Of a DNA stretch of 64,000 nt, positions 61,141-64,000 are shown one piece after another. The DNA is taken from the NCBI RefSeq assembly GCF_009914755.1, contig NC_060935.1, one strand, 5' to 3'. The DNA is from the human T2T-CHM13v2.0 reference genome, Homo sapiens. The notes under the pieces are model-generated. The model saw only the letters and a list, made by a program, of their open reading frames with translations, did not search any database and had not been told where the DNA came from. Position 1 is the stretch's first letter. Each line of letters opens with the position of its first letter. The position numbers were made by a program, and so were the translations under genes.

Positions 61141-61281
61141 CTTGGAAATAAGCTCATCGTGTTTGGCCAGGTGTGCACGGCAGTGGACACAGCTGTAAGT
61201 GCGGTGACAGCGGGGCAGATAGCTGCGGAAAGTCTTGGTGGGGAGGCAGGCAGGGCCCGGACCGGGGTCACAGCTGGGCAT
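61141..61281 (-). CDS. YPEL4: YPEL4 first coding segment ([47 protein letters not shown]); the exon extends 5' to 61465
   Basis: ATG at 61281, donor AAG|GTACGC, acceptor TTCCCAG|GTGAC at 61466/61465. The four segments total 127 aa of Yippee domain protein. Confidence 0.96.
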
Positions 61282-63858
61282 GACGGGCTGGAGGACAATG
61301 CCCTGGTGGGCTGGAGGGGCTGGCGCCGTGCAGCCCCCGCAGAGACGGTCGCAGGTGAAGCAGCGGAGCAGGTTGGCTAGAGCCGTGTTTCAGGGCAGGA
61401 GAAGTGTTGGGGGGCTGCCCGGCCAGGGCCCCCCCAGACGAGAACCAGATAGAAATAGAAGTCACCTGGGAAGAGGGGAAAGGACATCAGGGGAGCTGCG
61501 ACCTCAGGAGGACCCCTCCTGAGGGAATGGAGGAAAAGGGAATCAGCTCACCCATACCTCTACTTTCCCCATCACCATCGACCCCCCCACAGCATCCAGT
61601 TGCATTGTCGCCCTGTCCCCTGGATCCCCATTCTGCTCTGGCAAACCTGGCAGCCGATCCAGGCTTCTGGCGCCAAAGCCAGGGAGTCGGTGTTTCTCCC
61701 TCCTGGGGCAGAAGCAGCCTCCACCATTTTCCACAGAGAGAAGCCCACGGGCACAGACGCTGCCATGGGAGCAACGTCATCTGCAAGTGCCCTCTCCTTG
61801 GTTTTCAGTTCTTCGTGAGGCTCTGCATCGCACAGGCACTGTGTCTCAGGGGATCAGAGCCTTTTAAGAGTTGGGGATGCCTGAAGGTCTTTCTTTTACA
61901 TGGTCTTTGTTTGCAATACAATTGGTCCTTTATACATTTTGGGGAGGGGGGCAGGAGGTGTAAGGTGAGGGGAGGGAGAGCATGCAGGCAGGTATACAAA
62001 CCCTGATTCGGTTCTCTCCTGAGGTCAGGGTCCTGTGCTCTGGGACTCTTCACTAGAACTTTATAGATGTTTCCAACAGTACCAAAGCCCTCACGTGTGG
62101 CCGCCCATTCTCGCACCTTGGTTCACTCATTCTGGCCCAGAATAAGCACCTGCCTGTCTTCCCAGCCTGTGGGCCCCTTGGTCTTTCTCTCTCCTAGTCT
62201 TTACTAACTGTTGCCTTAGCCCTTGGTTAAAGACTTAGGCAGAAAATACATTTTCTTCAGGCAATCTGACAGCTGGAGCCAATGGGAAATGGGTAGCATG
62301 TCAGAGGAGCCTGATTCCTGGGCTGGGCAGGGCTGTGTGGTAGGGTGAGAGCAACGGCCACAACGAACAGCAGAAGGGGGACTCTTATTTTTAACAGCTG
62401 TGCTTTGGGGCACAAGGCAGAAAATGTTTCTTTCTACCTTCTCCCAGGGGCAGGGACAAACAGCAGTGACTCTGTGGGTGACTGAAGATGAAGTAATTGC
62501 TGGGTTCTGATTAGGAATAGAGGAAGATTGCCTTCTGCCCACGCGCCAGCCTCCGAGTGGCTGAAGGTGCTGGAGGCAGAGGATAAGAAGGGAGGTGGCC
62601 CCTGTTGGCTCCGATAAGCAGGTGAGCTGCTGCTTTCTCCTTCATAGGGCTTCCCAGCCCACTGTGGGTGGTTAGCCTAAGTCTGGTTCAGAGATGCCAG
62701 CTGGGCACTCTGGCAATGCTAGAGCACTAAGCAGAGAAGAGGCAGTGTTGGCTCTGGTTAGCCAGGGCATACAGGCTCTCCTCGTCCTGTCCTCCGCAGT
62801 GGCCACAGGCACCCAGCTGTTCCACTCTCTCTGAAGGCCGCCAGGCAGTCTCTCCGCAAAACCTCCATAGAGACTATCTTCAGTTTCAGGTCCTCTCCTC
62901 CGGGCTGGGTCCCAGGAAGACACCTTGGGCTGAGTTCAGGGTGACATTGGGCTCCGGCTGCAGGAAACGGGCCCTCCTTGCCAAGAGACCACCTTTCAGT
63001 CTCTGCTTCACAGGTTTGCCTTCAACTTTGCCAGCGAGTTCCCCTCTGACATGCACCACCTTGAAACACCTTCTTCAAGGGGCATGGAGAATGGGGCAGC
63101 TTGGGTCCCCAATCCTGAGCTCCTTCTCCAGCCTCCGGCCGTCACGCCTCCCTCCCTCTCCCCTAATTCCCAGTCAAGCCAAGGAAAGGCTGCACAGAAG
63201 GCCAGAGAATCACAAAGGGGAGTAGGGGTCATTTTTTCACCCATCTCGGATCACAGGGAGAAGCAAGTTGGGCAAATGACTGGAGAAAAAACAAAGGCAA
63301 GCCGAGTGCTGGGGAGAGATGTTCCCCTGAAGTGAGACGGGGCTGGACCGTAGGAGAAAGGGGAGAGGGAGGGCTGGCGGGGGCAACTGACAGCTGACAG
63401 CAGAGGCGCCGAGGCGGAGGCTGGAGGAACCAGGTGCGAATCTCGTGCTTCTCAGGGGGGAAAAGAAAAGGGGGGGGACACCTGCTCACAATGGATTTTC
63501 TCATCTGCTCTGAGGTTTTGGCACCCCCCAGGCTGGTATTCTCAGTATGGTATGGTCCAAATAATTAGCAGCACCGCCAGCTCCCAGGGCAGGCTTTGGG
63601 GGTCTGCACCAGCAGCAAAACAATAAACAGTGATGCCTGATGCTGCAGCCAAAGTTGCCGGGAAATAAGTGCGGGAATCGTCAGAGCTTGGAGAGGGATG
63701 GAGGAACCGAGAGAGAGGAGCGGAGGCAGCGGGGAGGGGGAAGGGAGGACAAAGGGTGGATGAATAATGCTTTTGCAAAGGGGAGAAAGCAACACGCAGC
63801 AGGAGGAGGAAATTTGCAAAGAGAAAAAAATTCATTTGGAGAAGGGCTGCCCCCTCAC

Positions 63859-64000
63859 CTTGAGGTCTGCTCCAGAGATCTCCGTCTATCTCTCTCTCTC
63901 TCTCTCAATCTCTCAATCTCTCTGCTCACTCTTCTCTCTTCTCTTTCCGCTCCTTCAATTGGGAAGGGGATGGGGGTGGGTGGGGGGAGGGTAGTTGGGG
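63859..64000 (-). other. YPEL4: Probable YPEL4 non-coding exon 1 (3' part; continues beyond the window)
   Basis: Strong donor CAAG|GTGAGG at 63859/63858 within a GC-rich, promoter-proximal-looking region. Confidence 0.6.

What the first reader, a model, noticed from the sequence alone, without database searches (positions are those of the whole stretch)
61282..61386. ACG-initiated, Cys-rich 35-aa N-terminal extension of YPEL4
Seen: upstream of the ATG (61281) the frame is open back to a TGA at 61392-61390. Two codons after that stop is ACG (61386-61384) in optimal context aacACGg (A at -3, G at +4), whereas the ATG lacks G at +4 (gtcATGc). I saw no upstream ATG in the visible 5' leader. The extension reads (M)[34 protein letters not shown], with a CxxC-xxx-CxxC cluster, giving a 162-aa proteoform. 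Recalled from memory, unverified: conserved non-AUG extensions have been proposed for YPEL paralogues. Inference: the Cys cluster could be a second zinc site or a palmitoylation/membrane anchor that changes localisation.
Basis: partly seen in the sequence, partly recalled or inferred. Interest (0 to 1): 0.8.

Follow-up and report, generated by a model that had tools for sequence, protein, structure and literature searches.

The report
Known ACG-started extension of YPEL4
The human YPEL4 gene very probably makes a second, longer protein that starts at an ACG codon 35 codons before the usual start; this was already predicted in print in 2011, and what the added cysteine-rich piece does is still unknown.

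Summary
On the minus strand there is a TGA at 61392-61390, then AAC, then ACG at 61386-61384 in the context aacACGg. Thirty-five open codons follow up to the annotated ATG at 61281. The NM_145008.3 leader holds no other ATG.

It is not new. Ivanov et al. 2011 (PMC3105428) list YPEL1, YPEL2 and YPEL4 as non-AUG extensions conserved in all vertebrates. A 2022 supplement places the YPEL4 extension at transcript index 307, which is exactly this ACG. GENCODE v35 annotates the YPEL1 and YPEL2 extensions but not that of YPEL4.

My own checks agree. Human YPEL1, YPEL2 and YPEL3 also carry ACG-GCY eight codons before an invariant Cys. Gene models from mammals, birds and a sturgeon keep the motif TALxxLLRCFxCxRLCGxC, and similarity stops at the ACG. 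Five of 22 bird clusters and the sturgeon have no downstream Met.

The function is only inferred. I favour an S-acylated membrane anchor over a zinc site, because only two Cys are invariant. There is no ribosome or peptide evidence for YPEL4 itself.

The parts
61390..61392 (-). In-frame TGA that closes the frame two codons upstream of the ACG. It lies inside exon 2, downstream of its 61465 boundary, so every transcript that holds this part of exon 2 carries it
   Evidence: exon table supplied with the finding
61384..61386 (-). ACG, proposed initiation codon, context aacACGg (A at -3, G at +4)
   Evidence: ACG-GCY sits at the same offset (8 codons before the invariant Cys) in human YPEL2, YPEL1 and YPEL3. 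Transcript index 307 equals the 'nte_find' value for YPEL4 in Fedorova 2022 Supplementary Data 3
61282..61386 (-). 35-codon N-terminal extension: (M)[34 protein letters not shown]
   Evidence: Conserved in mammal, bird and sturgeon gene models
61330..61362 (-). Cys cluster C9-x2-C12-x3-C16-x2-C19. C9 and C12 are invariant; C16 is kept in YPEL4 orthologues and YPEL2; C19 varies
61282..61329 (-). Pro/Ala-rich linker between the Cys cluster and the annotated Met. It is poorly conserved and differs in length between lineages
61369..61371 (-). In-frame CTG (aacCTGc), a possible secondary start giving a 30-codon extension
   Evidence: Human YPEL2 has GTC and YPEL1 has ATT at this codon
61279..61281 (-). 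Annotated ATG start (gtcATGc), reached by ribosomes that scan past the ACG
   Evidence: annotation supplied with the finding
61141..61281 (-). Annotated coding part of exon 2. It holds the start of the Yippee domain, including its first CxxC (SCVHC)
   Evidence: (PF03226 begins after the extension)
61387..61465 (-). 5' part of exon 2 upstream of the ACG: a leader without ATG. Protein-level similarity between lineages is absent here
63859..64000 (-). Part of leader exon 1 inside the window (the exon runs to 64086). It has no ATG

Best explanation
The stretch 61386-61282 (minus strand) is a real, evolutionarily conserved N-terminal extension of YPEL4.

How it is made. Scanning 43S complexes cross a 307-nt leader that has no AUG. 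A minority start at the ACG in good context (aacACGg) with initiator Met-tRNA. The rest scan on, meet no other AUG, and start at the annotated AUG 105 nt further on. One mRNA therefore gives a minor 162-aa form and a major 127-aa form.

What is shown and what is inferred. Shown here: the sequence anatomy; the conservation of the ACG in four human paralogues; the conservation of the peptide in other vertebrates. Taken from print: the prediction itself, and the annotation of the same extension in YPEL1 and YPEL2. Inferred: the ratio of the two forms, and the function.

Function. The extension has a conserved 19-residue head (hydrophobic residues plus Cys) joined to the Yippee domain by a variable Pro/Ala-rich linker. 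My best guess, at about 40%, is that the head is an S-acylation (palmitoylation) signal. It would tether a fixed small share of YPEL4 to membranes, while the AUG form stays soluble.
For: (1) Anatomy.

(2) Print.
- Ivanov et al. 2011 (PMC3105428; passages and section 12 read) name YPEL1, YPEL2 and YPEL4 among 10 genes whose extension and non-AUG start 'appear to be conserved in all vertebrates'.
- Fedorova et al. 2022 (PMC9789052), Supplementary Data 3, list YPEL4 NM_145008.3 with nte_find 307. That equals my 0-based index of this ACG.
- The same file gives annotated extensions of 33 codons for YPEL2 and 35 for YPEL1, as I count them in the genome.

(3) Paralogues.
- The codons are AAC ACG GCT in YPEL4, ACC ACG GCC in YPEL2, ACG ACG GCT in YPEL1 and CCC ACG GCT in YPEL3. 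Each sits 8 codons before a Cys.
- BLASTP of extension against extension gives E = 1e-6 (YPEL4/YPEL2), 3e-3 (YPEL4/YPEL1) and 7e-4 (YPEL2/YPEL1). Every alignment starts at residue 1, the ACG.
- Conserved residues use different synonymous codons: GCT/GCC, TGC/TGT, CGC/CGG.

(4) Orthologues.
- 32 of the 120 listed database proteins carry the motif.
- C9 and C12 are invariant in 23 of 23 rows.
- Between-group identity is 0.13 over the 20 positions upstream of the ACG column and 0.44 over the 22 after it.

(5) Five of 22 bird clusters and the sturgeon model have no Met between the extension start and the Yippee domain. A start at or above the extension is needed there.

(6) YPEL2 ribosome footprints, my count of the published source data.
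- 13 reads over the 36 nt before the ACG.
- 144 reads over the 99 nt of the extension, with the highest count (16) at ACG+4.
- 358 reads over the first 30 nt after the AUG, with 89 at AUG+4.
Against: - There is no direct evidence for YPEL4. 'ypel4' occurs in none of the other 8 supplementary files of Fedorova 2022 that were searched, which I take to hold their PhyloCSF and Ribo-seq gene sets. The peptide word ALANLLR occurs in no relevant paper.
- GENCODE v35 and the RefSeq table supplied with the finding annotate only the AUG start.
- In the YPEL2 data the extension reads show no triplet phasing: 47 of 144 fall in the phase that holds 270 of 358 coding reads.
- PhyloCSF over 50 upstream codons is negative for YPEL1 (-756.6), though positive for YPEL2 (+521.8).
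- The extension alone, searched against the whole genome, finds only itself.
- Six bird gene models, and two mammal ab initio models, read the stretch in another frame.
- I had no orthologue DNA. So I did no Ka/Ks or codon test of my own, and the start codon outside human is not seen directly.
- For the function there is no evidence beyond composition. Both structure predictions failed.
Confidence: 0.8

Rival explanations
1. The leader is conserved as RNA or as a translational control element, for example a near-cognate-initiated reading that only tunes use of the main AUG. On this view the peptide itself has no function.
For: - The YPEL2 extension reads show no triplet phasing (47 of 144).
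- YPEL4 was not re-identified in the 2022 screen.
- The nucleotide block further upstream in exon 2 (the GGGGGGCCCTGGCC region) also recurs in bird, snake and mammal models read in different frames. So some non-coding conservation does exist in this leader.
Against: - Conservation has a protein pattern: invariant Cys, conservative hydrophobic changes, and synonymous codon differences at conserved residues.
- It begins sharply at the ACG column.
- Five of 22 bird clusters and the sturgeon lack any downstream Met.
- No RNA structure stands out: folding z-score -0.62, with 46 of 200 shuffles folding as well.
Confidence: 0.08
2. The extension is translated, but mainly from the CTG at 61371 (a 30-codon extension) or from several near-cognate codons, not from the ACG.
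For: - The CTG is in frame with A at -3.
- From general knowledge of near-cognate starts (recalled), CUG is usually used more efficiently than ACG.
- One 85-member UniRef cluster of mammal models (P0003) begins at NLLRC, just before this codon.
Against: - The residues before the CTG (T-A-L/F-x-x) are conserved in birds, sturgeon, YPEL1 and YPEL2.
- The ACG is kept in all four human paralogues, whereas YPEL2 has GTC and YPEL1 has ATT at the CTG position.
- The CTG has C at +4.
- In YPEL2 the highest footprint count of the extension lies at ACG+4.
Confidence: 0.1
3. The Cys cluster CxxC-x3-CxxC is a second zinc site, either a knuckle of its own or one that completes a site with the Yippee domain, and it changes fold or partner binding.
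For: - Four Cys in two CxxC pairs are kept from sturgeon to human in most YPEL4 models: 18 of 22 bird clusters, the 2 mammal models printed (P0003, P0005), the sturgeon and the human sequence.
- The Yippee domain is itself a CxxC...CxxC zinc domain (consensus quoted in PMC10804680).
Against: - The fourth Cys is replaced by P, A or G in 4 of 22 bird clusters.
- Human YPEL2 lacks it, YPEL1 lacks the third and fourth, and YPEL3 keeps only C9.
- From general structural knowledge (recalled), three residues between two CxxC knuckles is a short spacer for one tetrahedral site.
- No Pfam family matches the extension (0 families at E <= 1).
Confidence: 0.15

Closest known systems
[quoted passage not shown]
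   Same: Same gene, same extension and same start. The transcript index 307 recorded for their YPEL4 extension in Fedorova 2022 Supplementary Data 3 is this ACG. Conservation is described as reaching all vertebrates.
   Different: Nothing in the anatomy differs. I could not see their Table 1 or Supplementary Dataset 1, which are not held as text, so their stated codon, length and Ka/Ks for YPEL4 are not quoted. They give no function.
GENCODE-annotated non-AUG extensions of YPEL2 (ENST00000672916.1, 33 codons) and YPEL1 (ENST00000672036.1, 35 codons)
   Same: Paralogous extensions with ACG-GCY at the same offset from the invariant Cys, a shared head motif T-A-[LF]-x-x-[LVI]-[LF]-[RQ]-C-[FC]-x-C, and a variable linker.
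   Different: YPEL4 was still unannotated in GENCODE v35 (the 'un_28' set) and in the RefSeq table supplied with the finding. YPEL4 has a second CxxC that YPEL1 and YPEL2 lack.
YPEL3 isoform 2 (157 aa, with 38 extra N-terminal residues; PMC10804680, passage read)
   Same: The 38 extra codons lie directly upstream of the main ATG in the same exon. They start at an ATG placed one codon before a Cys, and that Cys sits 8 codons after a retained ACG-GCT-CTG.
   Different: It is AUG-initiated, and the rest of the peptide is not significantly similar to the YPEL4 extension (BLASTP E = 0.65). That the two are homologous is my suggestion, not a shown fact.
N-terminal S-acylation (palmitoylation) motifs of peripheral membrane proteins such as GAP-43, PSD-95 and stathmin-2/SCG10 (recalled, not taken from any call)
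   Same: Several Cys sit within the first 20 residues among hydrophobic and basic residues, with no transmembrane segment. The number and spacing of Cys vary between relatives.
   Different: No experiment or predictor was available here. No paper among the 15 whose titles and abstract openings I saw, out of 46 that hold both 'YPEL' and 'palmitoyl', deals with it.

Membership tests
[quoted passage not shown] 2011) | The frame is open upstream of the annotated AUG and closed by an in-frame stop with no AUG in between | tested here: met
   TGA at 61392-61390. No ATG in the whole NM_145008.3 leader or in the extension.
[quoted passage not shown] 2011) | A near-cognate codon in a favourable context at the 5' edge of the conserved part | tested here: met
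   aacACGg. ACG is kept in four human paralogues, and similarity starts at this column.
[quoted passage not shown] 2011) | Protein-level conservation of the extension in orthologues | tested here: met
   Mammal, bird and sturgeon gene models. C9 and C12 are invariant in 23 of 23 rows. Between-group identity is 0.44 inside against 0.13 upstream.
[quoted passage not shown] 2011) | A codon-substitution signature of coding sequence (Ka/Ks, MLOGD, PhyloCSF) | not testable with these tools
   No orthologue DNA was available. Ivanov's Table 1 values are not held as text. Only synonymous differences between human paralogues were seen.
[quoted passage not shown] 2011) | Ribosome or peptide evidence of translation | tested here: inconclusive
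   None for YPEL4. For paralogue YPEL2 there is a rise in footprint density and a peak at ACG+4, but no phasing.
Yippee / YPEL family (Pfam PF03226) | A match to the Yippee-Mis18 profile above the curated cut-off | tested here: met
   P0003 (a mammal YPEL4 model with the extension) scores 42.7 bits against a cut-off of 26.6 at residues 60-151, that is, after the extension. The nearest solved structure is YPEL5, 8qbn_Y.
Four-cysteine structural zinc site | Four metal ligands conserved in all members | tested here: not met
   The fourth Cys is absent in 4 of 22 bird clusters and in human YPEL2. The third and fourth are absent in YPEL1, and only C9 is present in YPEL3.
N-terminal S-acylation signal | Cys close to the N-terminus, flanked by hydrophobic or basic residues, with no transmembrane segment | tested here: met
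   [18 protein letters not shown]. The same character is seen in YPEL1, YPEL2, birds and sturgeon.
N-terminal S-acylation signal | A thioester-linked fatty acid shown on the protein, with membrane association that depends on the Cys | not testable with these tools
   This needs acyl-biotin exchange or metabolic labelling. Nothing on it appeared in the searches I ran.

The most novel reading that the evidence does not exclude
The Cys-rich head may be an old membrane-targeting (S-acylation) module of the YPEL1-4 lineage that predates vertebrates.

- In arthropod-like Yippee proteins it would be made from an AUG. Forty-two of the 120 listed proteins begin MPCN[FL]ISSCFF[LI]E. Their Met, Cys9-Phe10 and acidic residue 13 fall in the same ungapped positions as the ACG, C9-F10 and D13 of YPEL4.
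- YPEL3 also makes its extension from an AUG.
- YPEL1, YPEL2 and YPEL4 would have switched to a weak ACG start. That fixes a small membrane-bound share beside a soluble majority.

If so, every functional study done with AUG-start cDNAs has missed the anchored form. The red-cell membrane defect of Ypel4-null mice would be the phenotype of that form.
Probability: 0.15. Interest if true: 0.6.

Novelty: already known. Interest (0 to 1): 0.28.

Why it matters
The extension has been in print since 2011, so finding it again is not a discovery. Three points remain useful.

1. The current RefSeq table supplied with the finding, and GENCODE v35, annotate the same extension for YPEL1 and YPEL2 but not for YPEL4. 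Variant interpretation and proteomics databases therefore miss 35 codons of a conserved coding sequence.

2. Tagged YPEL constructs in the papers I read appear to be built on the annotated reading frame. An example is FLAG-YPEL4 and YPEL4-HA in the Ypel4 knockout study, PMC8342551. The passages do not give the insert. If it starts at the AUG, partners or localisation that depend on the Cys-rich head would have been missed.

3. In some birds and in a sturgeon there seems to be no AUG before the Yippee domain at all. The weak start may be the only start there.

Tried and rejected
1. A whole-genome six-frame search with the 35-aa extension alone found only itself (E 6e-18) and a chance match on contig C5 (E 0.66). 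The paralogues were not recovered, so the extension is too short for an unanchored search.

2. RNA folding of 61400-61282, to look for a hairpin after the ACG that might help a weak start, gave -40.3 kcal/mol, z-score -0.62, with 46 of 200 shuffles folding as well. Nothing is there.

3. Two AlphaFold2 runs were made on a bird YPEL4 that begins at the extension (P0024), with alignments of 23 and 70 rows. Mean pLDDT was 37.0 and 39.7. Even the Yippee domain was not folded, so the models say nothing about the extension. No fold search was run on them.

4. The Pfam scan of the extension found 0 families at E <= 1. The PDB sequence search matched only the Yippee domain of YPEL5.

5. Homology between the extension and the arthropod-like MPCN... 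N-terminus is not supported by BLASTP of the three human extensions against P0082: E = 12, E = 6, and no alignment. A word search with residues 1-40 of P0082 found only 3 proteins and no further names. The positional match seen in the MAFFT alignment stays a lead.

6. BLASTP of the YPEL3 leader peptide against the YPEL4 extension was not significant (E 0.65 and 2.2).

7. Literature. 'YPEL4' + 'non-AUG' gave 1 paper. 'YPEL4' + 'N-terminal extension' gave 2. 'YPEL' + 'non-AUG' + 'extension' gave 3 papers, 2 listed. 'YPEL' + 'palmitoyl' gave 46, of which I saw the titles and abstract openings of 15, none on the subject. 'ALANLLR' gave 1 unrelated paper.

9. Ivanov's Table 1 and Supplementary Dataset 1 could not be read.
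Full report
**Observation**

On the minus strand an in-frame TGA lies at 61392-61390, followed by AAC and then ACG at 61386-61384, with A at -3 and G at +4. Thirty-five sense codons run to the annotated ATG at 61281, whose context is gtcATGc. They read (T/M)[34 protein letters not shown], with Cys at positions 9, 12, 16 and 19.

I completed leader exon 1 (63859-64086) from the genome and joined it to exon 2 in a script. The only ATG in the leader plus extension is the annotated one, so there is no upstream ATG and no out-of-frame ATG between the ACG and the ATG. Other in-frame near-cognate codons are CTG 61371, ACG 61329 and ATT 61299.

An open frame of 35 codons in 70.5% G+C sequence is not in itself unusual. 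One of the two other frames is also open over the whole stretch.

**It is already in print**

- Ivanov et al. [quoted passage not shown] Their Table 1 and Supplementary Dataset 1 are not held as text.
- Fedorova et al. 2022 (PMC9789052; section 8 and Supplementary Data 3 read) re-mapped Ivanov's extensions. For YPEL4 (ENST00000300022.8 / NM_145008.3) the column 'nte_find' is 307. This equals the 0-based index of the ACG at 61386 in my reconstruction: 228 nt of exon 1 plus 79 nt. I infer the meaning of the column from this exact agreement.
- The same file puts YPEL4 among 28 genes whose extension was not annotated in GENCODE v35. It lists annotated extensions of 33 codons for YPEL2 (PhyloCSF +521.8) and 35 codons for YPEL1 (PhyloCSF -756.6).
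- 'ypel4' occurs in no other of the 9 supplementary files searched. I take this to mean that YPEL4 is in neither their phylogenetic nor their Ribo-seq set.

**Paralogues in the same genome**

A six-frame search with the 82 residues encoded from the ACG to the end of exon 2 found four places:
- YPEL4 itself;
- contig C17 (YPEL2), matching from query residue 1;
- contig C22 (YPEL1), matching from residue 24;
- contig C16 (YPEL3), matching from residue 36.

Reading the DNA gives:

| Gene | Codons at the start |
|---|---|
| YPEL4 | AAC ACG GCT CTA |
| YPEL2 | ACC ACG GCC TTT |
| YPEL1 | ACG ACG GCT CTT |
| YPEL3 | CCC ACG GCT CTG |

In each case the ACG sits eight codons before a Cys. The extensions of YPEL2 and YPEL1 are 33 and 35 codons long, as in the GENCODE records.

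BLASTP of extension against extension gives E = 1e-6 (YPEL4/YPEL2), 3e-3 (YPEL4/YPEL1) and 7e-4 (YPEL2/YPEL1). Every alignment starts at residue 1 of both sequences. Conserved residues use different synonymous codons (GCT/GCC, TGC/TGT, CGC/CGG), as expected of coding sequence.

In YPEL3 an ATG lies seven codons after the ACG, directly before the Cys. From it run 38 codons to the main ATG. This fits the 157-aa 'isoform 2' with 38 extra residues described in PMC10804680 (passage). The rest of that peptide is not significantly similar to the YPEL4 extension, so its homology is a suggestion.

Against all this, the 35-residue extension searched alone against the genome finds only itself.

**Orthologues**

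A search of the large protein database for longer proteins gave 248 hits at E <= 0.001 among 348 candidates. The best 120 were listed, and I read 59 of them. Many are gene models that happen to read through the leader.

By a motif search over the 120, 32 carry the vertebrate head motif. They include mammal YPEL4, 22 bird YPEL4 clusters, a sturgeon model and mammal YPEL1 models.
- Birds read T[TA]ALGALLRCFPCERLCGGC.
- The sturgeon (P0110) reads TTFGTLLGTCFSCQRLCGVCTAP.

In a 23-row alignment the two Cys of the first CxxC are invariant, and the Phe after the first Cys and the Arg two residues after the second are nearly so.

I compared six groups anchored on Cys9:
- 3 mammal YPEL4, 13 bird YPEL4, 1 sturgeon, 3 YPEL1, 1 YPEL2 and 1 YPEL3;
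- that is 22 of the 30 sequences with enough upstream residues;
- left out were P0001, P0002 and P0004, whose models join the motif only from residue 5 or 6; P0042, which has a deletion; and P0032, P0034, P0040 and P0120, which are close to rows that I kept.

Between-group identity is 0.13 over the 20 positions upstream of the ACG column and 0.44 over the 22 positions from it. It is 1.0 at Cys9. Conservation therefore begins at the ACG. After the 19-residue head comes a Pro/Ala-rich linker of variable length.

Five of the 22 bird clusters have no Met anywhere between the extension start and the Yippee domain: P0021, P0022, P0044, P0045 and P0046. The sturgeon has none either (the script stopped with an error after these rows). 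There the complete domain can only be made from a start at or above the extension.

Eighteen of the 22 keep all four Cys. Four have P, A or G in place of the fourth.

Results against the reading: six bird models (P0050, P0054, P0064, P0076, P0092, P0119) read the head in another frame, and two ab initio mammal models (P0020, P0037) do the same. Species of the same genus or family as two of the birds have in-frame models (P0038 beside P0064, P0023 beside P0050). In P0064 the change of frame lies at the run of G in the CGGC codons. I therefore suspect assembly or model errors, but I could not see the DNA.

**Footprints in a paralogue**

No data for YPEL4 were within reach. From the source data of Fedorova's Supplementary Fig. 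8, I read positions 150-364 of the YPEL2 transcript. The ACG is at 236 and the AUG at 335. My counts:

| Region | Positions | Reads | Length | Peak |
|---|---|---|---|---|
| Before the ACG | 200-235 | 13 | 36 nt | none |
| Extension | 236-334 | 144 | 99 nt | 16 at ACG+4 |
| After the AUG | 335-364 | 358 | 30 nt | 89 at AUG+4 |

The count of 16 at position 240 is the highest between positions 200 and 334. Density thus rises about four-fold at the ACG and is about an eighth of that in the first coding codons. This fits a weak start with leaky scanning.

The extension reads are not phased, however. Only 47 of 144 lie in the sub-codon position that holds 270 of 358 coding reads. The paper's text says that YPEL1 has no Ribo-seq coverage at all, and that 16 of the 24 annotated extensions are 'clearly supported'. 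It does not name YPEL2.

**Mechanism**

Shown:
- a leader without AUG;
- a near-cognate codon in good context at the exact edge of the conserved peptide;
- no AUG between it and the annotated start.

Established knowledge of scanning (recalled) then predicts two products from one mRNA: a minor 162-aa form started with Met at the ACG, and a major 127-aa form. I found no RNA hairpin that might boost the weak start.

**Function of the head**

This part is inference. The extension matches no Pfam family. The Yippee domain (PF03226) starts only after it, and the nearest solved structure, YPEL5, covers only that domain. Both structure predictions failed.

A fixed four-Cys zinc site is unlikely as the common function, because only C9 and C12 are invariant. 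Several Cys set among hydrophobic and basic residues at the very N-terminus, in variable number, followed by a flexible linker, is the look of an S-acylation signal. That resemblance is recalled, not tested.

Ypel4-null mice have a red-cell membrane disorder, and the tagged YPEL4 used for pull-downs found no Band 3 interaction (PMC8342551; abstract and passages). That paper reports no rescue and no blot of the native protein. It is compatible with a membrane-bound form but says nothing direct about one.

**A lead beyond the literature**

Forty-two of the 120 listed proteins start with MPC, and 41 of these 42 heads read MPC.[FLI]I..CF.. Most come from unnamed transcript collections, and one is a EukProt gene model (P0082). 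After the head come a variable linker and a Yippee domain. That domain carries a C[DE]CC motif also seen in a named mayfly protein (P0078).

Counted without gaps from the first residue, their Met falls on the ACG column, their Cys9-Phe10 on C9-F10, and their Glu/Asp13 on D13. MAFFT aligns them in this way. BLASTP sees no significant similarity, so this may be convergence or chance.

**Verdict**

The finding is a correct reading of a feature that has been published for fifteen years. The same feature is annotated for two paralogues and is still missing from the YPEL4 annotation I was given. Translation of the extension is very likely. Its function is open.

Noticed in passing
window 64109-64127 (just outside the window; locus L005 309-327), minus strand: Three in-frame ATGs lie 23-41 nt upstream of the annotated YPEL4 transcription start (64086). 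If transcribed they open an 84-90 codon frame that runs through exon 1 and ends at the TGA that is the first in-frame codon of exon 2 (61464-61462). The peptide start MTHSVMMQFHNTQPHSPTD recurs in gene models of a pangolin (P0004), a woodrat (P0020), a rattlesnake (P0006: MRFHNTPPHSATD) and a parrot (P0044, and the unnamed P0115: MRFPGTQ). The DNA holds a TGACTCA motif. It may be a deeply conserved promoter block, or an upstream reading frame of longer transcripts.
   Followed up: partly
window 61426-61424, minus strand: A CTG in strong context (gccCTGg) lies 40 nt upstream of the ACG, in the +2 frame. It opens a 52-codon frame that overlaps both the ACG and the annotated ATG. This is the frame read by two ab initio mammal models (P0020, P0037). 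It is a possible overlapping upstream reading frame. I did not test its conservation.
   Followed up: no
locus L004 1729-1752 (human contig C16, YPEL3), minus strand: The YPEL3 leader keeps ACG GCT CTG seven codons before the ATG of its 38-codon AUG-started extension, and the Cys that follows that ATG sits 8 codons after the ACG, as in YPEL1, YPEL2 and YPEL4. This suggests that all four paralogues inherited the same head and that YPEL3 gained an AUG inside it. BLASTP does not support homology of the rest.
   Followed up: partly
proteins P0048-P0118 (42 of 120 listed): These are Yippee proteins, mostly unnamed, with an AUG-started Cys-rich head MPCN[FL]ISSCFF[LI]ESPW.R..DC and a long variable linker. 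They are probably arthropod, judged by a C[DE]CC motif shared with a named mayfly protein (P0078). The architecture is the same as in the vertebrate extension, but homology is not shown.
   Followed up: partly
proteins P0050, P0054, P0064, P0076, P0092, P0119 (bird YPEL4 models): These six models read the head of the extension in the +2 frame (…GRAAALLPLRAAVRG…) and then rejoin the YPEL4 frame. In P0064 the switch lies at the G-run of the CGGC codons. Models from the same genus or family as two of them (P0038 beside P0064, P0023 beside P0050) are in frame. Sequencing or model errors in G+C-rich DNA are likely, but I did not check.
   Followed up: no
window 61430-61455, minus strand (5' part of exon 2): The block around TCTGGGGGGGCCCTGGCC recurs as (V/I/S)WGGPG or GALAGQPP in mammal, bird and snake gene models that read it in different frames. 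So this part of the leader is conserved at the nucleotide level without a conserved frame.
   Followed up: no
window 63885-63935, minus strand (exon 1): There is a GA-rich simple repeat (gagattgagagattgagagagagagagagagataga) inside the 5' leader. It holds the only purine-at-minus-3, G-at-plus-4 ATT and ATA codons of the leader.
   Followed up: no
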